Below, piece by piece: positions 28,982-51,400 of a DNA stretch of 64,000 nt. Position 1 is the stretch's first letter, and the number at the start of each line of letters is the position of its first letter. Under the pieces are notes generated by a model. That model worked only from the letters and a program-made list of their open reading frames with translations, ran no database searches and was not told where the DNA came from. Source of the stretch: Candidatus Poribacteria bacterium (GTDB lineage: Bacteria > Poribacteria > WGA-4E > WGA-3G); NCBI GenBank assembly GCA_965242965.1, contig OZ251518.1, positions 704,001-768,000 on the forward strand, given 5' to 3'. Both the position numbers and the translations under genes were made by a program.

Positions 28982-28996
28982 CGACCCGTTCTCCCA

Positions 28997-30060
28997 CCGT
29001 AGGGCGAGGGCCTGTCCCTCGCCATGCCGGGGGATGGCGAGGGACGTTCCTCTATAGACATTCAGGCCGAGGGCTGTCCTGAAATCAGCGCAGCCTTGCG
29101 AACCAAAAGGTCTTAGGTCCTTTAGGACCTACATGTCTATAGCACACCGTGCTGGCCACTTTTCAAGGTCCTTTAGGTCCTTAATAATGGGAGATATGCC
29201 TTCGTCAAGCACATTAAGGTCCTACGGACCTTAGGATTTTTCATGTGCCGTTTTTCTATAGACATTAAGGTCTTACAGACCTTAAGAGGGACGACGAACG
29301 CTCGCGGGGGACAGGCCCCCGCGCTACGTAATAATGGCACGTTCCGCGGCCCGTAGGGCGAGGGCCTGTCCCTCGCCATGCCGGGGGATGGCGAGGGACG
29401 TTCCTCTATAGACATTCAGGCAGAGGGGCTGTCCTGAATCAGCGCAGCCTTGCAAACCAAAAGGGTCTTAGGTCCTTTAGGACCTTAATGTCTATAGCAC
29501 ACCGTGCTGGCCGCTTTTCAAGGTCCTTTAGGTCCTTAATAATGGGAGACAGGCCGTCGTAAAGCACATTAAGGTCCTACGGACCTTAGATTTTTCAGGT
29601 GCCGTTTTTCTATAGACATTAAGGTCTTACAGACCTTAAGAGGGACGACGAACGCTCGCGGGGGACAGGCCCCCGCGCTACGGTAAAAAAAACGTCCCCT
29701 TCACCGTAGGGCGAGGGCCTGTCCCTCGCCATGCCGGGGGATGGCGAGGGACGTTCCTCTATAGACATTCAGGCCGATGGGCTGTCCTGAATCAGCGCAG
29801 CCTTGCAAACCAAAGGGTCTTAGGTCCTTTAGGACCTTAATGTCTATAGCACACCGTGCTGGCCACTTTTCAAGGTCCTTTAGGTCCTTAATAATGGGAG
29901 ATATGCCTTCGTCAAGCACATTAAGGTCCTACGGACCTTAGGATTTTTCAGGTGCCGTTTTTCTATAGACATTAAGGTCTTACAGACCTTAAGAGGGACG
30001 ACGAACGATCGCGGGGGACAGGCCCCCGCGCTACGTAATAATGGCACGTTCCGCGGCCCG
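28997..30060. repeat. Three tandem ~354-bp composite repeat units (REP doublet plus CTATAG-associated hairpins)
   Basis: Units start near 28997, 29351 and 29703 with nearly identical sequence. Confidence 0.92.
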
Positions 30061-30277
30061 TAGGGCGAGGGCCTGTCCCTCGCCGTGCCTGGGTCTACCG
30101 GACGATCGCGGGGGACAGGCCCCCGCGCTACGGTAAAAAAACGTCTCCGCGCTACGATAAAAAAAGGGCCGCCGCGCGCGACGTGAGAAAAAAAACTGAA
30201 AAAATCGCGGAAAAGACCAAAAAAATCGCATTTTTATTATTTTTTTCACTTTTTTTCGTTTTTTTTTCAACTTTTTC

Positions 30278-30388
30278 TTGACAAAAAACGTCATATATGG
30301 CATAATTGACGCAAATAACGCAAAAATGTCAACCAACTCGCGGTTTTTGTCGATTTTTCTTGCATAAATCGCGCGAATAGGGTATCAT
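30278..30388 (+). promoter_or_regulatory. Tandem sigma70-like promoters of the giant gene, preceded by A/T tracts
   Basis: TTGACA-N17-CATAAT (30278-30306) and TTGCAT-N17-TATCAT (30360-30388); A and T runs at 30185-30277. Confidence 0.65.
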
Positions 30389-30437
30389 TTAGCAAATTCT
30401 GACGCAATAGAGGAGAAAAACGTGAAGAATCGCTCTC

Positions 30438-33400
30438 ATGGATACTCCGGCAACGTTGTTAAGGAAGCACGCGGCAATAATATCCGCGCTCAACAAAGCT
30501 TGCACACGCAAAACGTGGGCGAGCCAATCGCGTTCTCGCGTTCAAAAAATGACTATGCATTACACAGATCGGGACTTAACCCCCCCCTTAACTATACGGA
30601 TGTTAACCTCCGATACACCAGAGCGACGCGCCGGTGAAATCGGGGGCCATCGAGACCAGGAGGTCTTGCCTACGGTGGTGCATCGAGACCAGGAGGTCTC
30701 GCCTACCGGGATATTGCATCGAGGCCAGGAGGTCTCGCCTACGGGGAGCAATCGGGACGCTCGCCGCCGAATATCGGTTGCGGGGCTACTCGCGTTCGCG
30801 CTCGCCTGCGCGCTATTCGCATTGCCACACAATGCCGCCGCGCAAATACTCGCGGGAGGCTATGGCCCAAGCGGTTTCACACCGGCGGCACTGTTTCGGA
30901 ATACCACGCCACGCTTTGTCACAACCTACGAGGACAATCGGTTCGTGATGCGGCTGACCACGGGGCCCGGCGGCTATCTCTATGACTCGCGAAATCCGAG
31001 CGGAGACGGCTCGAACATCCGCTTTGAGATACTGCGCGATACTTACCACGACAGTCAGTCTAACGTTGTGACCGGCTGGTGGGGAGATAATTCCCACTTC
31101 GAAGTGCTGAATACCGCAAGAGATGGATACCAGCGCGGCACAATCCTATTCAAGACTGCTCCAGACTACGAAAATCCGACCGACAGGCGGCTTAGGTACC
31201 AAAGACATCAACCGCTGAGGAACCCCTGGTTGCCGCACCTCGGGCGTGAAGAATCGCCCTGGTACACCCGGTCTTATCGGGAGGATAACCAATATTGGCT
31301 CTCGGTCCGCGTCACGCTTGACGGGGTCGCGGGCGCGCATCCTACCTATCTCACAATACCTGTCTATGTTGAGAAAGACCTGGATAAGGAACCCCCGGTT
31401 TTCCGGGACACTTTGCCCTCCCTTTTCCATGTTACCGAAAATCACAGACTCGTGACGCAATTGCGACTTGGGGGCAGCAATGCGCATATCTATGATCTCG
31501 CGAACCCGCAAGGACAAAGCGAAGGCCGCTCAATAACCCTCGGCATCACAAGCTGGGGTGATGGCGGCAAGTTTAGCGTCTTTAACAGCCCGAGTGGTAT
31601 CTACGGCAGAGGTGCAATCGTATTCAACGCTGCACCCGACAAGGAGAATCCAACCGACATACTCATCGCTGGGACCTCGCCGGCGGGTAACAACGGCTAT
31701 CACTTGGAACTCTCCGCCAGCGTGACAGACAGACTCGGCGCAACGCATACCTCAAAGCAGAAGCTGATTGTTCGTGTTGTGAACGAATGGGACACGCCGC
31801 CGCAGAAACCCATCAACCTCCGGCAGACCGCGGTGGGCTCCGGCTCGGGCGAAGCCGGGCGCACGGTGACACTCAAGTGGACCCAGCCTGTTATTCAGAG
31901 TAGAGATGACGCGCCTTGGAAATACCTGGTCCAAGTGTGGGGGTGGGATCCTGACCGGCGTGTGCTCAGCACCTTTATTAACATCCCGAGATTTGATTTC
32001 CAGCAGCCCGGTATCCCAGAACAAGAACATCAGATTGTGCTGCCGAGCAACGGTATCTTTCTCGTCCAGGTTAAACCGTCAAATCGGCGAGACGGCACGC
32101 CTTCAGACAAGATACCCGTGGTGACGAACGGCGTGAACACGAACCCGGCATTTAGCAGCGGGACCCAGTTCTGGATTCCCGAGCACCAGACTCGCGTATC
32201 GAATTTCACTGCCGCTGCAACCGATGCCGATCCAGAAGACAGAAGGATACGTTATGAATTGAACACAACGTTCGGTGATGCCGCGCTGTTCCAAATCGAC
32301 AGCACTACCGGTGCATTCTCTTTCCGTCAACCACCGGACTATGAAAACCCGCGCGACGTGAAGACAGTCTTAAGCAGCTTCCAGACATCCCCTGCGGGAG
32401 ACAACGTCTATCTCGTCAAATTCAAAGCGACAGGCGATGTCCCGGATACCTACAAATCTTACACGGTAGGCTATAAACCGAGTCCTGACCGGGCGCGCAG
32501 CACCGAGCAGCTAGTGACTATCACCGTTTTCGATGTAATAGAGCATCTCGGCACGCCTGACGCGCCAACGGTGACAGTGTCAGCTCAGGTGGACACGAAC
32601 GGTAGGAATAAACTGCTCGTGCGTTGGGATGCCCCTGATAACACTGGCCCGCCGATTATCGGCTACGATCTGCAGTATCGCGATACTGCTACACTGCCAT
32701 TCACCGGGAACGGCAACGATGTGGCTTTCACTGGTGCCGGCACCTCCCTCATCTACGCGCGCTCCAACGGCAATGTGAATTATCAGTTCCGCGTCAGGGC
32801 GAAGAACAACGATGGCAAAAGCCTCTGGTCTGACTGGGGGAGCGTCGTCATTAATACGCCGCCAGTTTTCAGCAGTGCGAACACCGCCAACGTTGCTGAA
32901 AATACGACAAGCACGGGCATCACGGTGACTGCCACCGATGCCGATACAGGCGATACTGCACCCCGTTATGCGATAACCGGTGGTGTTGATGCCGGGAAGT
33001 TTACGCTGGATAGCACCACCGGCGTGCTCACATTCACGAACGCACCCGACTATGATAACCCCACCGATCTGGCAAGCACGGATCCGGTGAATGCAGCGAA
33101 CAACAACGTCTATCTCGTCCAGGTGACAGCGACGAGTGGGGTGGCACCGCGCCTCGCCACTGCCTCGCAATTGATTACCGTGACGGTGACAAACGTGATT
33201 GAACCGCCCGGGACACCTGACGCGCCGACGGTAGTCTCAGGTTTTTCCGCCAACTCTATCCTGCTCCTGAACGTCACATGGACTGCTCCCTCCAATACGG
33301 GTCCGGCGATTGACGATTACGATGTCCGGTACCGCTTCAAAGTCACGAGTGGAAATCCGATTCCGTGGACAGATGCGGGACATACCGGCACCGCCACATC

Positions 33401-36400
33401 TCTGCAGCTCACGAATGCGCTGAATAACACCACTTATGAGGTGCAAGTGCGCGCACACAATACGGAAGGCTGGAGCCCCTGGTCTGACTCCGGGGAGGAG
33501 ACAGCCATTGACAATAATGCCCCGCGGTTTACGATGAGTAGCACCAGCTTCGAAGTGCCCGAGCATTACTACAAACCGTGGCGAAAAATTGCGCAACTTA
33601 CCGCCGTGGACGATGACAACTTGGATGACGTTCGCAGCTTCAGTATTGTCGGTGGTGCCGATGCACAGAAATTCAAATTATTTTCTTCTGGCCAGTTGTG
33701 GTGGGATTTTTTTATCAACAGACTCCCCGCGCCTGACTACGAAAATCCCGTGGATGCGGCGAGCACCACAGTGCCCAAAGCGACTGCAGGCGATAATGTC
33801 TATAGCATTGTTGTTCAAGTTGAGAGCGAGGGGATTGCGCCCGGGATGACCGCTCAACAACGAGTCGCAAGGCGCAGGAGCACACGCCAGACACTTACCA
33901 TCACGGTGACAGACGTGGATGAGCCACCCGGGGCACTTACCTCACTTGCGGCGCAACCTCATAGTTCTAATGAGACGCATCTGGATGTGTCTTGGCAGCC
34001 CCCGAACATGACAGGGAAACCGCCGATCACCGGCTATGATGTGCGGTATCGGAAGCAGGGCACTACTGCCTGGTCGATTGTCAGTGCGAAGTATGTTCCT
34101 CTCTTTGCAGGCGCGTCGCGGACGGGTGCCCTGTTGAACGTCGGCCAGGATACTGGCACCGGTGACAAATACATCGTGCTGGACAGGTTGACGAAAAGTA
34201 CCACGTATGAGGTGCAGCTGCGCGCCAAGAACGATGAAGGCAAGGGCCCTTGGTCTGACTCTGCAACCGCTACGACGAACGCGCAACCGACGGTTACCCC
34301 CACCAGTTTTACGGTGCAGGAAAATCAACGCAGTGTTGGAACGTTCTCAGTTACCGATAGCGACCAGCAAGACAACGCCTATATCACTTACGCTATCCCC
34401 GCGATCTCTGTCTCCCTCAGCCCAGACCACGCGCAATTCACGGTAGATGCGCAGGGCAATCTGCAAACGGTGTCGGCGAGTGGCTTGGACTATGAAAACC
34501 CGACATCTGCCAGCGGCACCAATACATATACCTTTACGTTGCAGGTGCGGAGCGGACCAGCTGCGAATCATAAGCGGAATCGCATAAGTTTGCCGACTAT
34601 CACCGTAACGGTAACGAACGGAAACGAACTCCCTGGGAAGCCTAGTCCACCCGGGGTGTCCCCTGCGCCTGCTAGTAATTCCAAGTTAGACGTGACTTGG
34701 AGTGCGCCGAGCAACCCGGGTCCTGCGATAAAATACTACAATCTGCGGTATCGGAAAGGCACCACAGGCAGTTTTACAGTGTTGAATGCCAACATTCTGC
34801 CTCCTAGCGGGGGAGCTGTTCCGGCGCGGCGGCTCACGGGTTTGCAGGCGGATAGCAGTTATGAGGTGCAAGTGCGCGCCGTGAACGGCGAGGGCAGCGG
34901 CCCCTGGTCTGACTCTGGGACCGGCAGGACGAATGCTGCTGGTGCAGATCCGCTAACGGATAATCAGGTACCGCGGTTTACCAGTAACGCGAGTTTTTCT
35001 GTCGTTGAGAATACGACAGCGGTAGGGACGGTGACGGCGACAGATGCGGATACACAGGATAACGTCACCGGCTATACCCTCGGTGGCGCGGATAGTTCAA
35101 AGTTCCAGATTACCGGCGGTGGTGTGTTAACTTTCATAACCGCACCCGACCATGAAGCCCCGGTCTCAACCGATAGCTCAAACCTCTATATCGTCACCGT
35201 CACTGCGTCAAGCGGTGTCGGGAATAGAGCGCGGACAGCGAGCCAGGTCGTTTCTGTAACGGTGACAGACGTGCCGCCTCCGACTGCCCCCGATTCCATT
35301 GATGTCAGACCTACTTCGGGCACCTCTTTGACTTTGAGTTGGAGTGCGGCTTCAACAACCGCCGGGTATGCTGTGACGGATTACGATGTTCGTTATAGTG
35401 GGGATAGTGGGACTACGTGGACAGATGTGGCGCACGACACTGACGCTAGAAGCGCGACGATCTCGTCGTTGTCTTCCAATATTGATTACTCGATACAAGT
35501 GCGTGCGACAAGTTATGAAGGCACGGGCCCCTGGTCTCCCTCCGCTACCGGGTGGACGAATGCGCCCCCGGTGGTAACCGCGGATAAACTCTACACGGTA
35601 GTCGAAAACAGTCCTCCGTCGACCACAATTGCGACGTTTACGGCTAGCGATGCGGATTCGCGGGATGGCACGCCGACGCTGGTGCTTGAGGGTGCCGATA
35701 AAAGTCAGTTCGTGCTTTCTTCGTCAGGGGTGTTAACCTTCAAGGTGGCACCTAATTTTGAAAGACCCACGGATGTGCTTAATACGGCTCCGACGGCACC
35801 GGCGGATCGTTCTGAGCATTGGGATAACGACTATAGTCTGCGGGTCAAGGCGACGAGTGGCACGGGGCAGCGGTTGGCAAGCACATATACCCCGTGGTTT
35901 AAAGTGCGTGTGACAAACATTCCGCCGCCGGAGAAACCGGCTGCCCCGACGCTCACGGCGGCTTCTGCCACGCCTAGCGAGTTGGGTGTGACCTGGACTG
36001 CGCCGACGACAACGAGTGGGTATCCGATAACCGACTACGATTTGCGGTTTCGGAGAGTCACCAGCGAGAACAACGGTATTTACGCGTATCCCCGGCACAG
36101 CGGGACTAGCAGAACAAAAACTTTGAGGTATTTGGCGACTGGGACAGCGTATGAGGTGCAGGTGCGCGCGAGAAATAGTGAGGGCACTGGCCCCTGGTCG
36201 GATGTTGCGCAGCGTTCGACCGCGGCGAATGCTGCACCTACGTTCAGCACCACTGCGTTCTCGGTAAACGAAGGGCTATCCACTGTCGGCACCGTGATTG
36301 CAACCGATTCGGATTCTGCCGATTCGGTTGTGAAGTATGAGATAGGTGGCGGTTCGGATAGCGCGAAGTTCTCCATCGTTGAAGAGGGGGAAAATGCCGG

Positions 36401-39400
36401 GAAGTTGACTTTCGTCTCGCTTCCCGATTTCGAGAATCCGACAGATATTGCGCATAGCGCGCCGACACCGACGAATGCTGCGGCGAACAACGAGTATATC
36501 GTTTTCATCGTGGCGACGAGCGGCACAGCCGCGCGCGAAGAGCAAACGTATCAGCGCATCACCGTGACGGTGAATGACGTGAACGAAGCACCTGTTTTAA
36601 GTCCCATCACGCTCAGCGCGGTTGAGGAGAATACCACGGCGGTGACGACAGTAACCGCAACAGACCCGGATGAGACATCGGGTGGAGAGGCGAGGGATGT
36701 CATCACCTATACGCTCAGCGGTGCCGATAGTGGGAAGTTTCAGATTACACCGGAGGGTGTGTTGACGTTCGTCACGGCACCGGATTTTGAGAACCCCGGC
36801 GATGTCCTCAGTACCACCCCGACGAATCCAGCATCGGATAACGAGTATGTTGTGGTTGTGACAGCGACGAGTGCGGCGGGAACGCCGCGGGAGTTATCTG
36901 CTCCATCGCGCACGCTGATCGTGGAGGTATCCGATGCCCTCGAGCCGCCGGCTGCACCCGATGCACCGTCGGTGTCCGCGGTGACAGGCTGGCCTGATAA
37001 GTTAGACGTGACATGGACTGCACCGGCGAACACCGGGAAGCCGGCGATACTGCATTACCATGTCCAGTATCAAAAGAGTGGTGCGGCGGATTGGACATCG
37101 CATAGTAGCGAGATAGCTGCAGCCACTACCACGTTGCGCATCACGGGGTTAGAGAGCGGTGCGTCCTATAACGTGCAGGTGCGCGCCGATAATGTCGAGG
37201 GTGAAGGCACCTGGTCGCGCTCGGGCACCGGCACAACAAACGCGCTGACATCGTGGCTGCCGCAGTTCGGTTCTGTCGATCCGACGTATCCGGTGGCAGA
37301 GAATACGACAGCGGTGGGGACAATCACGGCGACAGATGCCACGAATGCCGACGTGACATTCTCTATTCCGGGGACAGATACTGCTGGCGGCGTGGATAGA
37401 GCGAAGTTCTCCATTACCGCGGGCGGCGTGTTAACGTTCAATACCGCGCCGAATTATGAAGATGCGCAGGATGCTGAGAGCACATCGCCTGCTAATGCGG
37501 CGGGTAATAACGAATATATCGTCAAAGTGGAAGCGGCGGCGAGTGGCCGTGGAAGTGCCACGCAGACAGTCACCGTGCGCGTGACAGACGTTGATGAGGA
37601 ACCCGGCAAACCGCTTGCACCGACGGTGAGAGCAGCGACTGCCACGCCGACGAAATTAAGCGTCACCTGGACAGCACCTACAAACACGGGACCTGATATT
37701 AACGACTACGATGTGCAGTATCGCGCCGGTAGCACCGGGCAGTTCACCGATGCAAGTTACGATGGCACGGGCACTTCCACAACGTTGACAGGTTTGACGC
37801 AGGGGACAGCGTATGAGGTGCAGGTGCGCGCGACGAATCCTGAAGACACGGGCTCCTGGTCTGACAGCGGCAGCGCGACAACAGCGGGGAATGCGAAGCC
37901 GAGTTTTACTACGATGGCTTTCTCGGTCGTGGAGAACATCACCGGCGTAGGGACGGTAACAGCCACCGATAGTGATTCCGGTGATAGTATCACGCGATAT
38001 GCGATAACAGGTGGTGCGGATAGCACGAAGTTTTCGATAACGGAGACCGGCGCGAACATCGGGAAATTGGTGTTCAGTGCTGCGCCCGATTTTGAAGCGA
38101 ACGGTTCGGCGGCGAGTAATAACAGTTACAAGGTGGAAATTACGGCGACGAGCGGCACAGCAGACCGGCAGGCGACGACAGCGGCGACGTTCACCATCAC
38201 GGTGACAAACGCGGTGGAGAAGCCAATCGCACCGGGGAGGCCCACAGTGGAAGCGGTTACGACGAACCCGGCGGCGTTGAGTGTGAGTTGGAGTGCGCCT
38301 GCGAATGCAGGGAAGCCAGCGATAACCGGGTATCAGTTGCAGTATCGCAAGGGGAGCACGGGAACTTTCTCGTCAGCGGCGGGGACGGTGACAGGGACAT
38401 CGACGACGCTGCGAGGATTGGATACCGGCACCTCGTATCAGGTGCGGGTGCAGGCGACGAACGCCGATGGAGATAGCACCTGGTCTGACCCGGGCACCGG
38501 CACAACGGCGACGAATGTGAAACCCACTTTCTCATCGACAACCCTCTCGGTTGCGGAAAACGAAACGACGGTAGACACCGTCACTGCCACCGATAGCGAT
38601 GCGAGTGATAGCGTCACGCGGTATCAGATAACGGGTGGTGCAGACCGGGCGAAGTTTTCGATTACGGAGACAGGGACGAATATTGGGAAATTGGTATTTG
38701 ATTCGGCACCGGATTACGAGGCAAGTGCCTCGGCGGCGGGTAATAACACCTACAAGATCCACATTACGGTGACGAGCGGCACCGGTGCCCGGCAGTTGAC
38801 AACGGCTCGCGCGTTCACCATCACGGTGACAGACGCGCCGGAACCACCGGCTGCCCCCGGCACACCGTCGGTGTCCGCGGTGACAGGCTGGCCCGATAGG
38901 TTAGACGTGACATGGACAGCACCGGCAAACACCGGCAAGCCTGCGATACAACACTACCATGTGCGATATGGCGTGGATGAAGCCACGGTGAGTTGGACAG
39001 AGAAAACCGGGACAGCAGATGAGATTACGGGAACGCTGACAACGCGCCTAACGGGGTTATCGTCCGGCGAGACCTATCAGGTGCAGGTGCGTGCCGATAA
39101 TGCCGAGGGAACAGGCACCTGGTCGCGCTCGGGCAAAGGCACGACAACTGCGCTGACAGCGTTGCTGCCGCCGGCGTTCGGTTCTGTCAATCCTCTAACG
39201 TATGATGTAGAGGAGAATACGACAGCGGTGGGGACAATCACGCCGACGAATACCCGGGTGACGTTCTCTATTCCAACGACAGCTGCCACCGGCGGCGTGG
39301 ATAGAGCGAAGTTCTCCATTACGTCTAACGGCGTGTTGACGTTCGTTACCGCGCCGGATTATGAAAATGCGCAGGATCTTGCAAGCACCTCGCCTAGCAA

Positions 39401-42400
39401 TGCAGCGGGTAACAACGAATATATCGTGAAGGTGAAAGCGGCGGCGAGTGGCTGGGGGAGTGTCACGCAGACAGTCCTTGTAACGGTGACAAACGCGCTT
39501 GAACCACCGGCTGCCCCCGGCACACCGTCGGTGTCCGCGGTGGAAAACTGGCCCGATAGGTTAGACGTGACATGGATAGCACCGTTGAATACCGGCAAGC
39601 CGGCAATACAACACTACCATGTGCGTTATGGCGTAGATGGAGCCTCGGTGACTTGGACAGAGAAAACCGGGACAGCCGATGAGATTACGGGGACGCTGAC
39701 AACGCGCCTGACAGGGTTAGCATCTGGCGAGACATATCAGGTGCAGGTGCGCGCCGATAATGCCGAGGGGACAGGCACCTGGTCGCGCTCGGGCACGGGG
39801 ACAACAAACGCGCTGACATCGTGGCTGCCGCAGTTCGGCAGTGTAGATCCGACTTATGATGTGGCGGAGAATACGACAGCGGTGCAGACAATCACGGCAA
39901 CAGATGCCACGAATGCCCAAATAACGTTCTCTATTCCGGGGACGGATGCCACCGGTGGCGTGGATAGAGCCAAGTTCTCTATTACCGCGGGAGGTGTGTT
40001 GACATTTGTAGCCGCGCCGAATTATGAAGATGCGCAGGATGCTGAAAGCACATCGCCAGTTAACGCGGCGGGTAATAACGAATATATTGTGAAGGTGCAA
40101 GCCGCGGCGAGTGGTAGGGGGAGTGCCACGCAGACAGTCACCGTGCGCGTGACAAACGTTAGAGAGAAACCCGGCAAGCCGCTTGCACCGACGGTGAGGG
40201 CGGCGGATGCCACGCCGACGAAATTGAGTGTCACCTGGGCTGCACCTACAAACACGGGACCGGCAATTGACGACTACGATGTGCAGTATCGCGCCGGTAG
40301 CACAGGGTTATTCACCGATGCGAGTTACGATGGCACGGGCACTTCCACAACGCTGACAGGTTTGACGCAGGGGACACTGTATGAGGTGCAGGTGCGCGCG
40401 ACGAGTGATGAAGGCACGGGCTCCTGGTCTGACAGCGGCAGCGCGACGACAGCGGGGAATGCGAAGCCGAGTTTCACCACGACAGCCCTCTCCGTTGAGG
40501 AAAACCTCACCAGCGTAGGGACGGTAACAGCCACTGATAGCGATATCGGTGATAGCATCGCGGGGTATGCGATAACGGGTGGTGCGGATGAAACGAAGTT
40601 TTCGATAACGGCATCGACAGGCGCGTTGGTTTTCCAAACCGCACCGGATTTTGAGGCGAACGGTTCGGCGGCGAGTAATAACAGTTACAAGGTGGAAATT
40701 ACGGCGACGAGCGGCACCGGCGCGCGACTCGCAACGAAAGCGGCGACGTTTACCATCACGGTGACAAATGCAATGGAGAAGCCAATCGCACCGGGGATGC
40801 CCACAGTGAACGGGGTTGCGACGAATCCGGCGGCGTTGAGTGTGAGTTGGAGTGCACCTGCCAACGCGGGCAAGCCGGCGATAACCGGGTATCAGTTGCA
40901 GTATCGCAAGGGGAGCGAGAATTTCACGTTGGCGGCAGGAACGGTGACAGGGACATCAACGACGCTGCGCGGGTTGGATACCGGCACATCGTATGATGTG
41001 GAGGTGCGCGCCGTGAACGTCGATGGCGAGAGCCCCTGGTCTGACACCGGCACCGGCACAACGACGACGAATGTGAAGCCGAGTTTCACGAGTAGCGCGA
41101 CGTTCTCGGTTGTGGAAAATACCACAGCGGTAGGCACTGTCACTGCCACCGATAGCGATACCGATGATAGTGTCACGGGATATGCAGTCACCGGTGGTGC
41201 GGATAGCGCGAAGTTTTCGATAACGGCATCGACAGGCGCATTGGTATTCAGTGCTGCACCCGATTACGAGGCGAATGCCTCCGCCGCAGGGAATAATACC
41301 TACAAGGTCCAAGTCACGGCGACGAGCGGCACCGGTGCCCGGCAGACAACAGCCGCGCAGGCGATTACCGTGACGGTGACAGATGCCACCGAGAAGCCGT
41401 TAGTCCCCACCGGGCTTAAGATAACAGCGACGACGCTCACGAGTCTCACGGCTGGCTGGAATGCGCCGAATAATGTAGGGAGGCCCGCGCTGCGCGGTTA
41501 TGATGTTACGTATCGGCAAGGGAACAGCGGCGCATGGACAGATGCAGGGCACACCGGTGTCGGCACATCGCAGATGCTGAGTTCGTTGACATCGGGGAGG
41601 AGTTATCAGGTGCGGGTGCTCGCGAAAAATGACGATGGTTCAAGTGGTTGGACATCGCCTGTCACCGGCACCACGGAGACAGACACCGCCCCGAGTTTCA
41701 CCAGTGCGGCAAGTTTCTCGCTTGATGAAAACACGACAACTGTCGGCACGGTAGTCGCCACTGATAGCGATTCCGGTGATAGTATCTTGCGGTATGCGAT
41801 AACCGGTGGTGCAGATCAGGCGAAGTTTTCGATTACGGAGACCGGCGCGAACATCGGGAAATTGGTGTTCAGTGCTGCGCCGGATCACGAGGCGAAGGCC
41901 TCCGCCGCAGGAAACAATACCTACAAAGTCCAAGTCACGGCGACGAGCGGTCAGGGCACTCGCAGTCTTTCAACGGCGCAGAGCATTACTGTCACCGTTA
42001 ACAATGTCAACGAGCCGCCTGCGAAGCCTGGCACACCGGTAGTGCAAGCAGTCGCCTACTACGTCGATAAGTTAGATGTGAGTTGGGACCCACCAACGAA
42101 CACCGGGAAGCCGGCGATACTGCATTACCATGTCCAGTATCAAAAGAGTAGTGCGACGAATTGGACATTGCACAGTAGCGAGATAGCTGCAGGCACTACC
42201 ACGTTGCGCCTCACGGGGTTAGAGGCCAGTGCCACCTATAACGTGCAGGTGCGCGCCGATAATAACGAGGGAGAAGGCACCTGGTCTAATTCCGGGATTG
42301 GTACGACGAATGCGAATGCGGTGTTACTGCCGACGTTCGACCCGCCCGAAGGAACAGGCGGTGATGGGCCAACAATAGACCCGCCATCAGGCGTTGATGC

Positions 42401-45400
42401 CCTCTATACCGTTGCAGAGAATACGACAGCGGTGGCGACAATCACGGCGACAGATCGCACGAATGCCCAAGTGACATTCTCTATCCCAACGACAGATGCC
42501 ACCGGTGGCGTGGATAGAGAGAGGTTCTCCATTACTCGGCTGGGCGGCGTGTTGAGGTTCGTTGCCGCGCCGAATTATGAAAATCCGCAGGATGTTGCAA
42601 GCACATCGCCTGTTAATGCGGCGAATAACAACGAATATATTGTGAAGGTGACAGCGACGGCGAGTGGCAGGGGAAGTGCCACGCAGACGCTCCGTGTAAC
42701 GGTGACTGACGTTAGAGAGAAACCCGGCAAGCCGCTTGCACCGACGGTGAGGGCAGCGACTGCCACGCCAACGCAATTGAGTGTCACGTGGGCTGCACCT
42801 ACAAACACGGGCCCGGCGATAACCGACTACGATGTGCAGTATCGCGCCGGTAGCACAGGGACGTTCACCGATGCAAGTTACGATGGCACGGTTACCTCAA
42901 CAACGCTGACAGGTTTGACACAAGGGACAGCGTATGAGGTGCAGGTGCGCGCGACGAGTCCTGAAGACACGGGCTCCTGGTCTGACAGCGGCAGTGGAAC
43001 AACAGCGGGGAACGCGAAGCCGAGTTTCACCACGACAGCCCTCTCGGTTGAGGAAAACCTCACCAGCGTAGGGACGGTGACAGCCACCGATGCCGATGAT
43101 ACCGTCACGGGGTATGCGATAACGGGTGGTGCAGATGAGACGAAGTTTACGATTACAAAGACAGGGACGAACAAAGGCAAGTTAGTCTTTAATACTGCCC
43201 CCGATTACGAGGCGAACGGTTCTGACGCAGGGGACAATGCCTACAAGGTGGAAATTACGGCGACGAGCGGCACCGGCGCGCGACTCGCAACGACAGCGGC
43301 GACGTTCACCATCACGGTGACAAATGCAGTGGAGAAGCCAATCGCACCGGGGATGCCCACAGTGGAAGCGGTTGCGACGAACCCTGCCCAGTTGAGTGTG
43401 AGTTGGACTGCGCCTGCGAATGCAGGGAAGCCGGCGATAACCGGGTATCAGTTGCAGTATCGCAAGGGGAACACGGGGAATTTCACGTCAGCGGCAGGGA
43501 CGGTAACAAGGACATCGACGACGCTGCGCGGGTTAGATACCGGCACATCGTATCAGGTGCAGGTGCAGGCGAAGAATGACGATGGGAAGAGCCTCTGGTC
43601 TGCCTCGGGCACCGGCACAACGGCGACGAATGCTGCACCGAGTTTCTCAACGACATCCCCGTTCTCCGTTCCGGAAAACACGACAGCGGTAGGCACCGTC
43701 ACGGCGACAGATGCCGATACCGATGATACCGTCACGGGGTATGCGATAACGGGTGGTGCTGATGAGACGAAGTTTTCCATTACGGCGACGACAGGTGCAT
43801 TGGTTTTCCAAACCGCACCGGATTACGAGGCGAACGCCTCCGCCGCAGGAAACAATACCTACAAAGTAGAAGTCACGGCGACGAGCGGCACCGGTGCCCG
43901 CATTCTTTCAACGGCGCAGAGCATTACTGTCACCGTCGGCGATGTGGATGAGCCGCCTGCGAAGCCTGGCACACCGGTAGTGCAAGCAGTCGCCCACTAC
44001 GACGATAAGTTAAAGGTGAGTTGGACTGCACCGGCGAACACCGGCAAGCCGGCGATAACCGATTACGATGTGCAGTATCAGAAGAACGGCGCGGCATCGT
44101 GGGAAACCCATGCACATGATGGAACAGGCGTTACCACGCAGCTGACAGGTTTGGATGAGAACACGAAGTATTTCGTGAAGGTGCAGGCGATAAGCCACGA
44201 AGGAGAAACCTGGTCTGACGCTGGCAGCGGTAGAACGAATGTGAATGCGGTGTTGCTGCCGGAGTTCGAGCCGCCCGAAGGAACAGGCGGTGATGGGCCA
44301 ACAATAGACCCGCCATCAGGCATTGATGCCCTCTATACCGTTGCAGAGAATACGACAGCGGTGGCGACAATCACGGCGACAGATCGCACGAATGCCCAGG
44401 TGACATTCTCTATTCCGGGGACGGATGCCACCGGTGGCGTGGATAGAGAGAGGTTCTCCATTACTACGGGCGGCGTGTTGACGTTCAGTGCCGCGCCGGA
44501 TTATGAAAATCCGCAGGATGTTGCAAGCACCTCGCCTGTTAATGCGGCGAATAACAACGAATATATTGTGAAGGTCCAAGCGACGGCGACTGGCAGGGGA
44601 AGTGCCACGCAGACAGTCCGTGTAACGGTGACAGATGTCAACGAGGGCCCGGCTTTCAGTTCGGCGAGTGCTTTCTCGGTGCAAGAGAATATCACGGCGG
44701 TTACCACGGTGACAGCCACGGATCCGGATAGAGAAAGCGATGGCGCGACAGCCCGCGATAGCATCACCTACACAGTGGAGGGCACCGATGCCAGCCTCTT
44801 CTCTATTAGTTCTACCGGCGCGCTGTCATTCTCCACTGCGCCAAACTTTGAAGTTCCCGGTGACAAAGCGAGCATTGAACCGGAGAACGCCGCCGAGAAT
44901 AACGAATACCTTGTGACTGTCAAAGCGACGAGTGGTACGGTAGCGCGAGCGAAGTCTGCGAAACTCCCGCTGGTTGTCACCGTTACGGATATGCCGGAGA
45001 AACCCGGAAAACCCGCTAAGCCGACGGTGACTGCTGTCACCAACAGCGTAACGAAGTTGGACGTGAGTTGGAACCCGCCCGATAATACGGGGCCTCCTAT
45101 CAGCGGCTACAATGTGCAGTATAAGAAAAGCACGGCAGGTTCATTCACGGATATTAGTGGTGACATCACTACCGTATCAAAACGCCTCACCAGCCTCCTT
45201 CCGGAGACCTCTTATCAGGTGCGGGTGCGCGCGAAAAGTGTTGAAGGGATAGGTGCCTGGTCTGACCCGGAGACAGGAACAACGAATGCCTACTCTGACA
45301 TCAGCCCGAGTCAAGACAATCGCAGACCGCGTTTCACGACGAGCAATAGTTTCAGCGTTCCGGAAAATAGCACGGCAGTGACGACAGTGAATGCGGTAGA

Positions 45401-48400
45401 TGACGATTCCGGCGATGGGGCTCCCAGTTATGAAATCACCGGTGGTGCGGATAGCGCGAAGTTTTCGATTACGGCATCAACAGGCGCGTTGGTATTCAGT
45501 CCTGCACCCGATTACGAGGCGAAGGCCTCCGCCGCAGGAAACAATACCTACAAAGTGGAAATCACGGCGACAACCGGTGGTAATGGCGACAGGCGGTTAA
45601 CGGCATCGCAAAATCTGACGATTACCGTTACCAATGCAAACGAACCGCCGGATGCACCAACAGGCTTGACGGTGAACGGTTCCACGACTACGCCGATGCA
45701 ACTTGACGTGAGTTGGACTGCGCCTACTGTGCCGACCAGCATTCCCTCACTGAGCGGATATGATGTGGAGTATCGGAAAGGCGCAACTGGGAGCTGGTCT
45801 TCGTTAACACACACCGGCACTGGCAGGACAGCCGCCATTACTAGTTTGATGGCAGGTGCGAGTTATCAGGTGCGGGTGCGCGCGAAAAACAGTGAAGGCA
45901 AGAGCGGATGGGCACAAGAAAGTGGCACTACGGCGGGGAACGCGAAGCCCATTTTCTCAACGACAACCTTCTCCGTTGACGAAAACACGACAGCGGTAGG
46001 CACCGTCACTGCCACCGATAGCGATGATACCGTCACGGGGTATGCGATAACGGGTGGTGCTGATGAGACGAAGTTTTCCATTACTGCATCGACAGGCGCG
46101 TTGGTTTTTGATCCGGCACCAAATTACGAGGCGAAGGCCTCCGCCGCAGGAAACAATACCTACAAAGTGGAAATCACGGCGACGAGCGGCACCGGTGCCC
46201 GGCAGGCAACGAACGCGCAGCCGTTCACCATCACGGTGACAAATGTGCTTGAAGCACCGGAGAAACCGGAGAAACCGACGGTGACTGGTCTTCCTGAATA
46301 TCCAAAGCGGCTCAAGGTCAGTTGGACTGTGCCTACGAACACGGGCCCGGAGATAACCGAGTATCAGTTACAGTATCGTCAGGAGGGCGTGGTGGCTTTC
46401 ACGAAAGCTGCAGGTGCCGTAACAACAGGCACTTCGACGACGCTGCGCGGTTTCACGCCAGGGACAACTTATGAGGTGCAGGTGAAGGCGAAAAACGCCG
46501 AGGGCACCAGCACCTGGTCAGATACCGGCAGCGGCAGCACGGCGGCGAATGCCGACGCAGTGTTCGCAAACTCCGACACTGCCAGTGTGGACGAAAACAG
46601 TCCTATAACTACCAACATCCTCACGCTGAATGCCACGGATGCAGATGCCGGTGACAGCGTCAGTTATAGCCTTAGCGGTGGTGCAGATGCCGGCGCGTTT
46701 ACGATTGCGGATACCAATAAATTGCGATTCACAACGGTGCCTAATCATGAGAGTCCGACAGATGCGGCGAGCACATCGCCTAGCAACGCGGCGCGCAACA
46801 ACGAATACATCGTTGTCGTCAAGGCTACCAGTGGCACCGATGAACGCATGACCACGGCCAAACAAACGCTGACGATTACCGTCACGGATGTTCGCGAACC
46901 TCCCGATAAGCCGACAGCACCGAGTATCTCCGATGCTACCCTCACGACGCTAAAGGTGAGTTGGACTGCGCCAGCCAACGCGGGCAAGCCGACGATAGAC
47001 GATTACGATGTCCAGTATGCGAAGAACGTCGCGAATCCGACATGGGTATCACATATGCACGTGGGTGCCAGCAGGTCCACGACGCTGACAGGGTTGGATA
47101 CCGGCACGACATACCAAGTGCGGGTGATGGCGAAAAACGACGAGGGGAACAGCACCTGGTCTGACACTAGCACAGGCACGACAATCGTCAACCGCGGTCC
47201 GGCGTTCAGCAGTACCGCAGCCACTGCGAGTGTCGACGAGAATTCCGCAATCACGACAGACATATATACGTTTATTGATGGGACGGCCGCAACGGATGCC
47301 GATCCGCAAGACAGCGTCACCGGTTACACGGTGACAGGCGGTGCCGATAAGACGAAGTTTGAGATTCAGGATACGAACAAACTGCGGCTGAAGAATGTGC
47401 CGGATTATGAGGCGCAGTCCTCCTATGTGGTAGAAGTGAAAGCGACGAGCGGTGCCGGCGCGCGTGCACTCCAAAGTGATGCGCTGACAATTACCGTCAG
47501 CGTTACTGATGTCCCCGAGCCGCCCAATACGCCGGATGCACCACGCATCACGGAAACTGCGCTCACCACATTGAATGTGAGTTGGAGTGAGCCAGACAAC
47601 GACGGCAAGCCGCCGATAACCGACTATGATGTGCGGTATGGCAAAAACGGCGCGAATCCGATGGTGTGGGTGGCGCATACACACGTGGGAGCCGGCAGGT
47701 CCACGACGCTGAGAGACTTGGATACCGGCACGAATTATGATGTGCAAGTGCTGGCGAGAAACGACGAGGGTGCCAGCGACTGGTCCCCCTCCGGCAAAGG
47801 GATGACAATCGTCAACAAAGGTCCGAAGTTTGAGACATCTCAGGTACTGGGCATTGATGAAAATCAGGTGATTGTCGGCCTGTTAACTGCCATGGATCCG
47901 GACGCAGAAGTTGACAACACCTTTACCTACAAGATTGTTGGCGGTGCAGATGGAAACCTCTTTGTGATTGGGGCTAGCGTTAGCAACGCGGAGGGGCAGT
48001 TTGCCGCCGTGCGGGGTGCAGAAAGCAACGCTCAAGAAGCAAGCATCCCCGGCCTGCTGAAGTTTAAGAGCGGTATGGCACCGGACTATGAGAACCCTGA
48101 AGACTCCGATAAAAACAGAGAGTATATCGTCACCGTCGAAGTGACAAGTGGAACCGGGGCTCGCGCCATGTCAACAAGACAAGACTTCAAGGTGAACACG
48201 AGAGACGTGAGGCCACGCAACGTCGAACAGCCGATAGTCACACCTGTTGATGGCGACGGCACCAAGTTGAAAGTGGAGTGGGCAGCCCCGAGGAGGGAGA
48301 TCTCAGACCTGCCAGTCAACGGTTATCGTGTCCAGTATAGTGCCGATAAGTCGGGGCTATGGACAGAGCACGACTACGAAGGTGCTGAACCCCCAGACCC

Positions 48401-51400
48401 GGCACTGGTGCTCAGCGGGTTGAAACCGAGTACCGAGTATGAAGTCCAAGTCCAAGCGCGAAGTTTAGACAGAGGCTCCTGGGAGGACAGCGATTGGTCT
48501 GAATCTGGCGAAGCCACGACAGATTCCGCAGATCCGGCGCGGGATGGGAGTAATTCGCCGCCGCGCTTCATGAGCAAGGCGCAGCCGACTATTCCCGAAA
48601 ATACCATGCCGGTGATAACGCTCGTCGCCGTTGATGACGATGAACAAGACAAAATCATGGGCTTTGAAATCACCGGCGGCGCGGATGCAGCGATGTTTAT
48701 GATTGAAAATCACGACGAGCTGCGGTTCAAAAAAGCACCGGACTATGAAGCCATGATGGAGGACAGCAATAGCGAAGACGGTGATGACACCGAACCGACG
48801 AACGCCGACGAACTTGACGCATGTCTCGTGGAAGTCATGGCGACAAGCGGCACAGGGAAACGCGCGAAAACGGTGAAACAGATGCTGTCGGTGCGCGTCA
48901 CCGATGTTTCCGGTCCCGAAAGACCGGCGAAGCCGAAGGTTTCATCGGTTGCTGGCAGCACCAGCAAACTCCGCGTGAAATGGCGCGCCCCGGAAAGTTT
49001 CGGGCTCCCCATCAGCGATTACGATGTGCAGTATCGCGCCGATAGTGCGGGGGCATGGAAAAACGCGAAGTATGATGGCACCGGCACCAGCACCGATTTA
49101 ACGGGGTTGGAGGCGAAGGAAACCTATCTCGTGCAGGTGCGCGCGCGGAATAGCGAAGGCAGAAGCCCCTGGTCACCGAGCGGGAGCGGCTCCCCAAGTG
49201 CAGAGCCGACTGCCGATGCACCGGACACCGATTCCGGCGATCCTGACGAGGAAGGTGAATTGCCACCCGATGGCGCGCCCGCAGTGCCTGTCATCATCGA
49301 GCACAAAACCGTCGTCATCAACGAAATCGGCAACCGCACCGAGGATAAATACGACTGGGTGGAGTTGTTCAATCGCGCTTACGAGGACGTTAGTTTGAAG
49401 GACTGGAGTCTCAGCATCGTTGATAAGTCGGTTGTGCACGATGTGGCGCGGGACGCGCTGGAGTCAGCCGATGGTTCAATGCACGATGTGGAACTCGTTC
49501 ACTTCAAGACAGACATCACAATTCCGGCGCGCGGCTATTTACTCGTGATGCACAGCGATCCGCTGGCGAAAGAAAATCCGTTGGCGGGCGGCATCGCATT
49601 GGCAACCCCGCGGGAGAAGCCGCTGCCTGGGCAAGAACAATTAATGTCATCGCTGCCGTTGTCTCAGTGCTACATTGATACCGGGCTTTCGCTGCCGGAT
49701 GGCGACTTCCTGCTCATCCTGCGCGATAGCGCGACGGCGGAAGGCACCGACGAACACCTCCGCGATGTCGCCGGCAATTACTACAAACCCGCCCTGGTCG
49801 GCGCGGAACCGACGTTGATGTGGCCGCTGATACTAGATGTCCGCGATGTCTCCAACTTCAACTTCCGTAGCGATGAGGTGTGGGCGCGGGAGAACACGCG
49901 CATCGATGGATTCTGTGAGAACGCCTTCGTGCAGGCACCTTACACCGGGGTCGGCTATGACAGAGCGATTGCGCCGACGGATGCCGGTGGGAAGCATAGC
50001 GGCACTCCCGGCTATGCCAACGACGCACTCAAGACGAAAGCGGCGGATTTAGAGGATCCGAATTGCGTCTCCATCAGCGAGGTGATGTTTGCTACCGATA
50101 CCGTAGCGCGAGGGCCTGTCCCTCGCGATGCCGGCACTAACATCAACGGCCTCCCGCAATGGATAGAGGTATTCAACTGCTCGGAAACCGAGGCGGTGAG
50201 CATGGAAAATTGGCGGTTGGAGATTCGGAACCGTAGCAATGGCGGCGCGCGGGCGAAAGCGACGCTCATTTTCAACCAGGCACTGCTTATCCCGCCGCGT
50301 CAGACGGTGCTGCTTGTCTCCTCGTCAGAGCGCGCGATAAAACCGCGCACGGCAGGACGCGGACTCATCTCCAGCGAACCTTGGCCGACGAGTGAACATC
50401 TGCCTGAGGCGTATATCTACTCACTCTACGATGAAGCAGCCGCACAACTTCGGATGACATCCCGAAACGATAAGGTGCTGAGCCTCACCGGGTTCACGCT
50501 AACGTTGAAGGATATGACTGACGAGGTGGTAGATGTGATTGGTAATCATGTTGAAGGCGAGCCGATTGCGTGGCAGTTGCCAGTATCCAAGAGTGAATCG
50601 GGAGCGCGGAGTTCCATGCTGCGTCGTTATGTCGATGGAGACGCGGTTGATGGACAGTCGGCGGAGGCTTGGGTATCCGCCGCCGAGACGCATCTCGCCG
50701 GTGTCCAAAACGGGCTCTATTACGGTGATGCCACCGATATCAGCACACCGGGCTATCGGGGCAGCATGCTCACCACGTTTGAGATGGCGGCGACAGGCAC
50801 CAGCATCGAGCTCACCTGGCAGACCGCGTCTGAATCGAACACCGCAGGCTTTTATGTCCTCCGGTGTGACACGCGCGATGGCGAATTCGTGACGTGCAAC
50901 GATTTACTCATCCCGGGCGCAGGCACGACAAGCACACCGCAAACTTACGCATGGACAGATGCTAAGAAGACAGCCGGTGTCGCCTATTGGTATCGCTTGG
51001 AGGAAGAGTCGTTTGCGGGGGTGCGGCAAGTCTTGGCGAAGCGGCAATTGACGTTTGCTAAAGCAGATGTCAACGGCGATGGCGAGGTAAATGTGCAGGA
51101 CCTGGTTTTCGCCGCCGCCGGCAATGGACAGCCTGTCCCGCAGGCGCAAAAACAGAATCCCGATGTCAACGGTGATGGTATCGTCAATCCGCAGGATGTC
51201 CAAGCAGTGCTCGGTGTGTTAGAGGCGAAGCCGGGGGCTGCGCCAGCGTATCCGCGGCTCACGGCGAATCTCCTGCAACCGTGGATTGACGAAGCGAAGC
51301 GGCTGAATCTACCCGATGCGACTTTCCAGCGCGGTATTCGTGAATTGGAACGCCTCGCCGCTGCATTGGCAATTCCGAAGGAGACAGCACTCTTGCCGAA

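What the first reader, a model, noticed from the sequence alone, without database searches (positions are those of the whole stretch)
30411..30640. Poly-C tract may act as a phase-variable switch for the 7077-aa giant adhesin
Seen: the only strong RBS (AGGAG, 30411-30415) precedes GTG 30422, whose 71-aa ORF is one base out of frame with the giant ORF. A C8 run (30580-30587) lies in the overlap. Deleting one C gives ...SGLNPP-LTIRMLTS..., in frame with the 21-kb gene. The in-frame ATGs (30438, 30549, 30599) have no clear RBS. Established: slipped-strand homopolymer switching controls many bacterial adhesins. Inference: this assembly captures the OFF (or frameshift-dependent) state.
Basis: partly seen in the sequence, partly recalled or inferred. 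Interest (0 to 1): 0.75.

Follow-up and report, generated by a model that had tools for sequence, protein, structure and literature searches.

The report
Poly-C frame switch before giant adhesin
A run of eight C's lies inside the real start region of a 7,000-residue surface-protein gene of a sponge symbiont and sets whether the gene is read in frame, and the same device precedes about fifty other surface-protein genes in this genome.

Summary
GAGGAG 30410-15, GTG 30422, the 71-aa ORF, C8 at 30580-87 and the one-base frame offset are all present. Two details are wrong: the third ATG is at 30600, and three more AGGAGG sites lie in REP-like units at 30658-30732.

In the only ortholog found (same genus, G002), the conserved GGAG-GTG start reads through C8 into the signal peptide and a 6181-codon frame. 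The frame break here is one extra base next to the run. Contigs from four public runs give further alleles at the run's 3' edge, covering all three frame relations, including C7 against C8 on otherwise like flanks.

The genome is a Candidatus Poribacteria sponge symbiont. It has 62 matches to the poly-C + GTTAA motif, against 9 in a control. Of these, 53 have an SD-preceded start, mostly out of frame. Poly-C runs also sit at the 5' ends of DNA-methylase genes.

Heritable slipped-strand phase variation is the best reading, at about 0.55. Programmed recoding on the run and a REP-borne bypass start remain open. No read-level or RNA data were available.

The parts
30278..30306 (+). sigma-70-like promoter TTGACA-17-CATAAT ahead of the leader
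   Evidence: 11 of 12 matches with TG before the second hexamer. The region gave 4 sites against 1.1 +/- 1.2 in shuffles.
30410..30415 (+). Shine-Dalgarno GAGGAG, 6 nt before GTG 30422
   Evidence: GGAG and the 12 bases AAACGTGAAGAA are conserved in G002; the genome's GGAGG-to-start spacing peaks at 5-9 nt.
30422..30637 (+). Leader ORF as assembled (71 aa), ending at TGA 30635-37. Its first 53 codons are the conserved N-terminal leader of the giant protein.
   Evidence: All 4 indels against G002 between the GTG and the run are multiples of 3.
30580..30587 (+). C8 run, the frame-setting tract (encodes Pro-Pro)
   Evidence: It is C8 in G000, G002, X2, X6 and X10, and C7 in one X1 contig.
30588..30607 (+). 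Post-tract motif TTAACTATACGGATGTTAAC. It includes the variable bases 30588-90 and GTTAAC 30602-07. GTTAAC reads Leu-Thr in the giant frame and contains a TAA stop in the frame one base further on.
   Evidence: indels of 2, 3 and 4 bases at 30587-90; motif shared by about 50 loci; palindrome 30597-30612.
30648..30758 (+). Three REP-like units, each a hairpin GAGACC-AGGA-GGTCTC carrying AGGAGG, inserted in frame between the motif and the signal peptide. They are absent from G002.
   Evidence: 3 copies, spacing 33 and 36; 87-column gap in G002; 77 other places in the genome match residues about 64-110; about 1,419 core copies; X6 has one unit fewer.
30675..30677 (+). In-frame GTG, 11 nt after AGGAGG 30658-63: a candidate bypass start
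   Evidence: 11-nt spacing lies in the tail of the genome's distribution (17 cases against a background of about 5).
30753..30842 (+). Signal peptide (RDARRRISVAGLLAFALACALFALPHNAAA)
   Evidence: read by eye. Similarity to G002 runs from residue 108 onward.
30438..51671 (+). Giant ORF as listed (7077 aa), with fn3, cadherin, lamin-tail and dockerin domains
51402..51665 (+). C-terminal T9SS type A sorting domain
   Evidence: TIGR04183, 31.1 bits against a cut-off of 23. FlgD_ig, 32.8 bits.

Best explanation
The C8 run lies inside the true 5' coding leader of the giant surface-protein gene.

Proposed reading of the locus:
- Transcription starts at the TTGACA-17-CATAAT promoter.
- Translation starts at GTG 30422, behind GAGGAG.
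- About 53 leader codons lead into the run (Pro-Pro), then the motif ..T-I-R-x-L-T-S-D.., then the Sec signal peptide and the 7,000-residue fn3/cadherin/LTD protein with a T9SS-type C-terminal sorting domain.

The length of the pyrimidine run (the C's plus the bases just 3' of it) decides whether the leader is in frame with the rest. In this assembly it is one base too long. Ribosomes from GTG 30422 therefore stop at TGA 30635 and the giant protein is not made from that start. This is the OFF state.

Loss of one base (C7) or gain of two by slipped-strand mispairing at replication would restore the fusion. The locus is one of about 50 in this Poribacteria genome that share the same poly-C leader cassette. 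Most are out of frame at any one time. This is a contingency repertoire of eukaryote-like surface proteins, and poly-C runs also sit at the 5' ends of DNA-methylase/R-M genes.

Shown: the anatomy, the conserved start, the in-frame ortholog, the allele series and the repertoire. Inferred: that the changes are frequent and reversible at the DNA level.
For: (1) Ortholog. It was found in 1 of 40 relatives searched (G002, same genus).
- GGAG plus AAACGTGAAGAA are conserved.
- All 4 indels between the GTG and the run are multiples of 3.
- The run is C8.
- There is one base fewer right after the run (C8-TT-ACT against C8-TTA-ACT).
- The GTG frame runs without a stop through the run into the signal peptide and a 6181-codon open frame.

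(2) No conserved alternative start.
- ATG 30600 is CTG in G002, X2 and X6.
- G002 has no ATG/GTG/TTG in frame between the motif and the hydrophobic core.

(3) The SD spacing of 6 nt lies at the genome's optimum.

(4) Alleles in contigs of four runs, with frame relation to the giant gene:
- Reference: C8-TTAACT, out of frame.
- X2 (depth 33.5) and X10 (depth 2.4): 3 bases fewer, same frame as the reference.
- X6 (depth 26.7): 2 bases fewer, third frame, stopping at the TAA in GTTAAC.
- One X1 contig (depth 900.8): 4 bases fewer, i.e. C7-ACT, in frame.
- The X1 contig and X10 share the flank and 30615G but differ by one C.
- No other indel lies in 30422-30676 in X2, X6 or X10; the gap counts of records 17, 25 and 9 are fully accounted for.

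(5) Repertoire.
- 118 C/G runs of 8 or more.
- 62 regex matches to C6+ ..GTTAA against 9 in the control. Of these, 53 have an SD-preceded start open to the run, with frame relation 0/1/2 = 7/11/35.
- 18 have a motif frame open for 400 or more codons.
- Natural in-frame examples L053, L054, L055 and L060 (1109-1985 aa) all carry a lamin-tail domain like the giant.

(6) 6 of 7 other genes with a 5' poly-C run are DNA methylases or R-M enzymes.

(7) 16 of 25 flank-defined tract families hold more than one run length.

(8) The out-of-frame paralogs keep intact frames of 1400-2200 codons, so they are not decaying.
Against: - The run is C8 in 5 of 6 alleles, including another species. Frame differences lie in the 0-3 bases beside it.
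- The alleles also differ by SNPs. They are therefore co-existing strains, not shown to be switch variants of one clone.
- All runs were Logan contigs, which drop rare variants, so no length distribution was seen.
- mutS1 and mutL are intact.
- The two largest tract families do not vary in length: 11 copies all C8 and 5 copies all C7.
- 35 of 53 loci share the same offset, needing one more base. This could instead mean a selected recoding configuration, or under-called C runs in a long-read assembly.
- The four X2 SNPs at 30619, 30622, 30625 and 30628 all fall on third positions of the 71-aa ORF's frame. They are synonymous there and non-synonymous in the giant frame (my count gives p about 0.045). 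This hints that the short ORF is translated as such.
- Codon-position analysis of the leader against G002 was inconclusive.
Confidence: 0.55

Rival explanations
1. Programmed recoding rather than heritable switching. The leader ORF normally ends at the TAA inside GTTAA, giving a peptide ..T-P-P-x4-R-stop. A fraction of transcripts (RNA polymerase slippage adding a C) or of ribosomes (-1 or +1 slip of tRNA-Pro on the C run) passes into the downstream frame. The downstream gene is then made at a set low level, or in response to a signal.
For: - 35 of 53 cassette loci have the same offset, in which the start frame stops exactly at the TAA of GTTAA.
- The offset holds in the two largest families with no length variation, although their 1500-codon ORFs stay intact.
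- GTTAA is conserved at the nucleotide level across unrelated downstream genes and into another genus (G009).
- Leaders whose gene has its own start carry terminator-like hairpins 50-100 nt after the run: L059 has 5 sites against 0.8 +/- 1.0 in shuffles, and L001 has one at 1095-1111. The in-frame leader ORF of L001 stops directly against the gene's ATG.
- From established knowledge, CCC-C sites are prone to +1 slips of tRNA-Pro, and long homopolymers are prone to transcriptional slippage.
Against: - At the giant locus the alleles occupy all three frame relations, so no single configuration is kept.
- The L001-type family is spread 3/4/4 over the three relations.
- Near-identical paralogs differ in run length: C8/C10, C8/C9 and C9/C12.
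- Poly-C runs at R-M genes fit DNA-level switching.
- No RNA data exist to show slippage.
Confidence: 0.2
2. In this species the giant protein starts at in-frame GTG 30675, served by the AGGAGG of the first REP-like unit. The upstream 71-aa ORF is then a separate upstream ORF, perhaps coupling to that start, and the run no longer gates the gene.
For: - AGGAGG 30658-63 lies 11 nt before in-frame GTG 30675, which leaves a 33-residue n-region ahead of the hydrophobic core.
- The REP units are present in every strain of this species that was laid. 4 of the 5 alleles are out of frame. The units are absent from G002, which is in frame.
- The leader ORF stops 38 nt before GTG 30675.
- The periodicity of the X2 SNPs favours the 71-aa frame.
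Against: - An 11-nt spacing is in the tail of the genome's distribution (17 cases; the peak is at 5-9 nt).
- The SD sits in the loop and stem of a hairpin.
- The unit is a genome-wide repeat with about 1,419 copies, so its SD-like loop need not function here.
- X6 lacks one unit.
- An in-frame allele (C7) coexists in X1.
Confidence: 0.15
3. The offset is an assembly or sequencing error at a homopolymer, or the gene's 5' end is simply broken in this strain.
For: - The genome is in 2 contigs, which suggests a long-read assembly.
- 35 of 53 cassette loci would be put in frame by one more C, the direction in which homopolymers are typically under-called.
Against: - C8 at this locus is seen independently in X2 (33.5x), X6 (26.7x) and X10 and in G002.
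- This locus needs one base fewer, not one more.
- X1 has contigs over 30588-30600 with no indel row besides the minority allele.
- The 7077-codon frame is intact.
- C6 and G6 runs inside genes are in frame 140 times, against 3 apparent shifts.
Confidence: 0.05

Closest known systems
Neisseria Opa proteins: repeat tract inside the signal-peptide-coding region (recalled, not tested here)
   Same: A slippage-prone repeat sits in the 5' coding leader ahead of the mature surface protein. A multi-copy family has most copies out of frame at any time.
   Different: Opa uses CTCTT pentamers, whereas this is a C homopolymer. Here the leader is a long extension (about 50 codons plus a conserved post-tract motif) upstream of the signal peptide. 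It is shared by unrelated protein families, some of which have their own start codon.
Poly-G/C contingency loci of Campylobacter jejuni, Haemophilus, Helicobacter and Bordetella. Search listings seen: PMC8355987, PMC1891110, PMC4209511, PMC2831843.
   Same: G/C homopolymers of 7-12 lie at the 5' ends of surface-structure and R-M/methylase genes. A repertoire of tens of loci shows mixed ON and OFF states.
   Different: The host here is an uncultured sponge symbiont with intact mutS/mutL. The tracts are embedded in a conserved cassette (SD-start, leader, poly-C, ..TAC N4 GTTAAC) that those systems lack.
Programmed frameshifting and transcriptional slippage (dnaX, IS elements). Review PMC5009743 was seen in a listing only.
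   Same: A homopolymer forms the slip site. A conserved stop lies just downstream in the zero frame. The offset is constant in most copies.
   Different: No stimulatory structure has been shown. C runs are not the classical slip sites. The giant locus does not keep one offset.
Eukaryote-like repeat proteins of Poribacteria (PMC3909097; one passage read)
   Same: fn3, cadherin, LRR and Ig-like domain proteins with signal peptides in sponge-associated Poribacteria.
   Different: That paper's main text has no occurrence of 'phase varia' or 'homopolymer'. The leader cassette is not described there.

Membership tests
Simple-sequence-repeat contingency (phase-variable) locus | Homopolymer of about 7 or more in the 5' coding region or promoter | tested here: met
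   C8 at 30580-87, 158 nt after the conserved start.
Simple-sequence-repeat contingency (phase-variable) locus | Tract length sets the reading frame of the gene | tested here: met
   A 7082-aa ORF results with one C fewer. The G002 ortholog is continuous.
Simple-sequence-repeat contingency (phase-variable) locus | Tract length differs among close strains | tested here: inconclusive
   C7 against C8 on like flanks (X1 contig against X10). The pyrimidine run is 7-10 over 6 alleles, but the C run itself is C8 in 5 of 6.
Simple-sequence-repeat contingency (phase-variable) locus | Reversible switching within a clonal population | not testable with these tools
   Only Logan contigs were on hand, not reads.
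Simple-sequence-repeat contingency (phase-variable) locus | Genome-wide repertoire including R-M/methylase genes | tested here: met
   53 cassette loci. 6 of 7 other 5' poly-C genes are methylases or R-M enzymes.
Programmed -1 frameshift / transcriptional slippage site | Same frame offset conserved across homologous sites | tested here: inconclusive
   35 of 53 loci genome-wide share one offset, but the giant locus shows all three offsets.
Programmed -1 frameshift / transcriptional slippage site | RNA or protein product differs from the DNA frame | not testable with these tools
   No RNA holder was listed, and there are no proteomic data.
T9SS type A cargo | C-terminal type A sorting domain above the curated cut-off | tested here: met
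   TIGR04183 scores 31.1 bits against a cut-off of 23 at residues 912-999 of window:48669-51668.
T9SS type A cargo | T9SS machinery in the genome | not tested
   No search for PorV, SprA or PorU genes was run.
Leader-peptide transcription attenuator | Terminator hairpin after the leader ORF | tested here: not met
   No terminator-like site lies after the run on the + strand in 29800-31000. Such sites do occur in sister leaders L001 and L059.
Known RNA family (Rfam 15) | Match at or near the gathering score | tested here: not met
   Window 28500-31500 and 12 sister loci gave only chance-level hits.

The most novel reading that the evidence does not exclude
The poly-C leader is a genus-wide 'slippage-gated' regulatory cassette. 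It is a conserved upstream ORF whose default product ends ..T-P-P-x4-R at the TAA inside GTTAAC. A slip on the C run, whether heritable, transcriptional or ribosomal, carries ribosomes past that stop. They then fuse to the signal peptide, couple to the gene's own start, or read through a terminator. One device would in this way control about 50 eukaryote-like surface-protein genes of a sponge symbiont.
Probability: 0.25. Interest if true: 0.85.

Novelty: new variant of a known kind. Interest (0 to 1): 0.66.

Why it matters
Sponge symbionts are thought to use eukaryote-like surface proteins (fn3, cadherin, LRR) to deal with the host. How they vary or regulate them is unknown, because these bacteria are uncultured. 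A repertoire of about 50 such genes, each behind the same frame-setting poly-C leader, would suggest stochastic surface variation, so far described mainly in pathogens, in an ancient animal-microbe mutualism. Poly-C runs at the 5' ends of DNA-methylase genes point the same way. It also gives a concrete, sequence-readable marker (run length per locus) that can be scored in existing sponge metagenomes. For annotation, it means the giant gene's start, and those of many paralogs, are miscalled by ORF finders.

Tried and rejected
- Rfam on window 28500-31500 and on 12 sister loci gave only chance-level hits.
- More alleles or orthologs were sought without result:
  - a DNA pattern in metagenome contigs (0 matches);
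  - a protein query in genome contigs and in metagenome contigs (no relative confirmed, and near genomes may be left out);
  - two protein-database searches with the in-frame G002 N-terminus (none, and only proteins of 701-2000 and 220-700 aa were searched, so giant proteins could not appear).
- No RNA holder was listed for the locus.
- Codon-position analysis of the leader against G002 did not single out a frame.
- RNA folds of eight leaders pair the C run with a downstream G run in some cases, but not at this locus or in G002. I did not pursue this.
- I considered a sigma-54 site and a promoter inside the leader (GTTGAC before the run). I dropped both. The spacing is off by one for sigma-54. 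GTTGAY reads as conserved Val-Asp codons with third-position variation (my reading).
- Literature: 'Poribacteria' + 'phase variation' gave 1 paper, off topic. 'sponge symbiont'/'homopolymeric'/'phase-variable' gave no paper holding the first term among the 10 listed. 'Poribacteria'/'homopolymer'/'frameshift' gave nothing on topic among the 8 listed.
Full report
**Observation.** The sequence shows GAGGAG at 30410-15, GTG at 30422, a 71-aa ORF 30422..30637, the 7077-aa ORF 30438..51671 and C8 at 30580-87. The GTG frame and the giant frame differ by one base. With one C fewer, a single 7082-aa ORF starts 158 nt before the run.

The third in-frame ATG is at 30600, not 30599. AGGAG is also not the only strong SD: three AGGAGG lie at 30658-63, 30691-96 and 30727-32 inside three REP-like units at 30648-30758.

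A sigma-70-like promoter, TTGACA-17-CATAAT, lies at 30278-30306. The giant protein carries fn3, cadherin, lamin-tail and dockerin domains. It has a C-terminal T9SS type A sorting domain above cut-off. It is preceded by a signal peptide at about 30753-30842 (read by eye).

**Where translation starts.** Among 40 relatives, only one same-genus genome (G002) has an ortholog. It is 61% identical from residue 108 on, with a 6181-codon open frame. The DNA alignment shows the following:
- GGAG and the 12 bases around the GTG are conserved.
- Four indels lie between the GTG and the run, all multiples of three.
- The run is C8 in both genomes.
- There is one base fewer directly after the run in G002 (C8-TT-ACT against C8-TTA-ACT).
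- The three REP-like units (87 columns) are absent from G002.

In G002 the GTG frame runs without a stop through the run, the motif ..PPLTIRLLTSD.. and the signal peptide. ATG 30600 is CTG in G002. G002 has no ATG/GTG/TTG in frame between the motif and the hydrophobic core. The SD-to-GTG spacing of 6 nt lies at the genome's optimum of 5-9 nt, and the 16S tail motif is present. GTG 30422 is therefore the ancestral start, and the run lies in coding sequence.

**Alleles.** Runs that hold the locus are sponge metagenomes and coded organisms. All are kept as contigs, and none is on record as RNA. I laid four runs on 30200-32300:

| Source | Depth | Change at 30587-90 | Frame relation to the giant gene |
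|---|---|---|---|
| X2 | 33.5 | 3 bases fewer | as the reference (out of frame) |
| X10 | 2.4 | 3 bases fewer | as the reference (out of frame) |
| X6 | 26.7 | 2 bases fewer | third frame; leader stops at the TAA inside GTTAAC |
| one X1 contig | 900.8 | 4 bases fewer (C7-ACT) | in frame |

The gap counts of the spanning contigs (records 17, 25 and 9) are fully explained by the listed indels, so no other indel lies in the leader. The X1 contig and X10 share the flank and 30615G but differ by one C.

Together with G002, six alleles cover all three frame relations (2 in frame). The pyrimidine run (C's plus following T's) ranges from 7 to 10, but the C run itself is C8 in five of six. The alleles also differ by SNPs, so they are strains. 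Contigs cannot show minority lengths.

**Genome context.** A same-family genome (G009) is titled Candidatus Poribacteria.

The own genome has 118 C/G runs of 8 or more. Counts fall 283, 48, 34, 15 for C6 to C9, that is, a shoulder at C8-C9. By flank these 118 runs divide as 34 GTTAA-type, 12 of a repeated leader family, 25 between REP elements and 47 other.

The pattern C7+ N9-15 GTTAAC gives the following counts:
- 44 matches against 1 control in this genome;
- 22/0 in G002, 6/0 in G001 and 8/0 in G009;
- 0 to 3 in the other 37 genomes.

A stricter form matched only the Poribacteria record among all species representatives; near genomes may be left out.

Of 62 looser matches (control 9), 53 have an SD-preceded start whose frame is open to the run. 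The start usually lies 121-161 nt upstream. The frame relation to the motif frame is 0/1/2 = 7/11/35.

Relation 2 means that the start frame stops at the TAA inside GTTAA. Eighteen loci have a motif frame open for 400 or more codons (13/3/2 for relations 2/0/1).

Four natural in-frame examples of 1109-1985 aa carry LRR, Big or fn3 domains. All four carry a lamin-tail domain like the giant.

In other loci the gene has its own SD and ATG, and the in-frame leader ORF ends beside it. In L001 its TGA abuts the ATG. These leaders hold terminator-like hairpins 50-100 nt after the run.

Nineteen of the 118 runs lie at or near the 5' end of an ORF of at least 373 aa at one of the three lengths. In 10 of these the long ORF exists only at plus or minus one base. 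Six of seven such genes outside the cassette are DNA methylases or R-M enzymes. Sixteen of 25 flank-defined tract families hold more than one run length, but the two largest (11 copies at C8, 5 copies at C7) do not.

**Mechanism.** The best reading is a slipped-strand frame switch in the coding leader, with this assembly in an OFF state (confidence about 0.55). Shown: the conserved start, the in-frame ortholog, the allele series, the repertoire and the R-M genes. Inferred: frequent, reversible DNA-level change.

Several points argue against it:
- The C8 core is stable.
- mutS1 and mutL are intact.
- The largest families are invariant.
- The bias to one offset may instead reflect programmed recoding on the run (rival, 0.2) or under-called homopolymers.

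Under-calling does not explain this locus. C8 is seen in three other data sets, and the locus needs one base fewer.

A third reading (0.15) is that the REP-borne AGGAGG and GTG 30675 now start the protein in this species. All laid strains carry REP units and 4 of 5 alleles are out of frame, while G002 lacks the units and is in frame. However, the 11-nt spacing is marginal and the SD lies in a hairpin.

Four X2 SNPs at 30619, 30622, 30625 and 30628 fall on third positions of the 71-aa frame. This is a weak hint (p about 0.045 by my count) that the short ORF is itself translated.

**Comparison and novelty.** The device works like homopolymer contingency loci and like repeat tracts in signal-peptide-coding regions. 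The latter, for Neisseria Opa, is recalled. For the former I saw only search listings.

It differs in three ways. The leader cassette is conserved. It is shared by unrelated genes and includes a stop placed in the next frame. The host is an uncultured sponge symbiont.

A Poribacteria single-cell genomics paper reports fn3 and cadherin genes with signal peptides. Its main text has no occurrence of 'phase varia' or 'homopolymer' (PMC3909097, one passage and term counts). My searches found nothing on topic. Supplements were not looked at.

**Open.** Three things are missing: read-level run-length distributions, RNA against DNA run lengths, and peptides across the junction. All are specified under next steps.

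Noticed in passing
window 30648-30758; genome-wide: A REP-like unit of about 33 nt (hairpin GAGACC-AGGA-GGTCTC, with the loop forming AGGAGG) has about 1,419 core copies in the genome. Here three units sit in frame inside the leader. They are flanked by a 12-nt direct repeat (30633-44 and 30745-56) that looks like a target-site duplication. X6 has one unit fewer.
   Followed up: partly
G000:C1, 25 of the 118 C/G runs of 8 or more (e.g. 638043, 4133828): Poly-C runs lie between two REP elements of another family, in the form ..gcgctacgataaaaaacg-C8-tcaccgtagggcgaggg... They are not in a leader and their role is unknown.
   Followed up: no
G000:C1:471799, 473397, 1552913, 2065549, 2324431, 3440209: DNA methylase and R-M genes (N6_N4_Mtase, Eco57I-type, with Mrr_cat) have poly-C runs of 7-11 at their 5' ends. 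Two neighbouring paralogs (C8 and C9) are both out of frame.
   Followed up: partly
G000:C1:1749431 and 3688167: Two ATGs 4 nt apart (ATGAATG) lie behind one SD and ahead of a C9 run. Two of the three run-length classes therefore give the 2,040-aa ORF, and only the assembled C9 does not.
   Followed up: no
window 30594-30628: Eight SNPs in 35 nt separate the reference from X2 just after the run, against 1-3 in the 158 nt before it (13 of the 15 X2 differences are listed). This may be gene conversion between leader cassettes.
   Followed up: no
L014 (G002), upstream of the GTG: G002 has at least two tandem copies of a roughly 74-nt unit holding a promoter-like TTGAAG..TAAAAT ahead of the leader, where G000 has a single TTGACA-17-CATAAT.
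   Followed up: no
window 29900-30140: The intergenic region upstream holds hairpin repeats of two further families (aaggtcc-tac-ggacctt, and cgcgggggacaggcccccgcg), followed by A- and T-rich tracts.
   Followed up: no
G000:C1, 11-13 loci such as 1635662: A leader of about 480 nt (GTG at -151, C8, motif ..HPQALSK.., terminator-like hairpin) is nearly identical upstream of different genes of 200-700 aa. No copy differs in overall length at the run; the C9 and C7 copies arise by substitution at the run's edge.
   Followed up: partly
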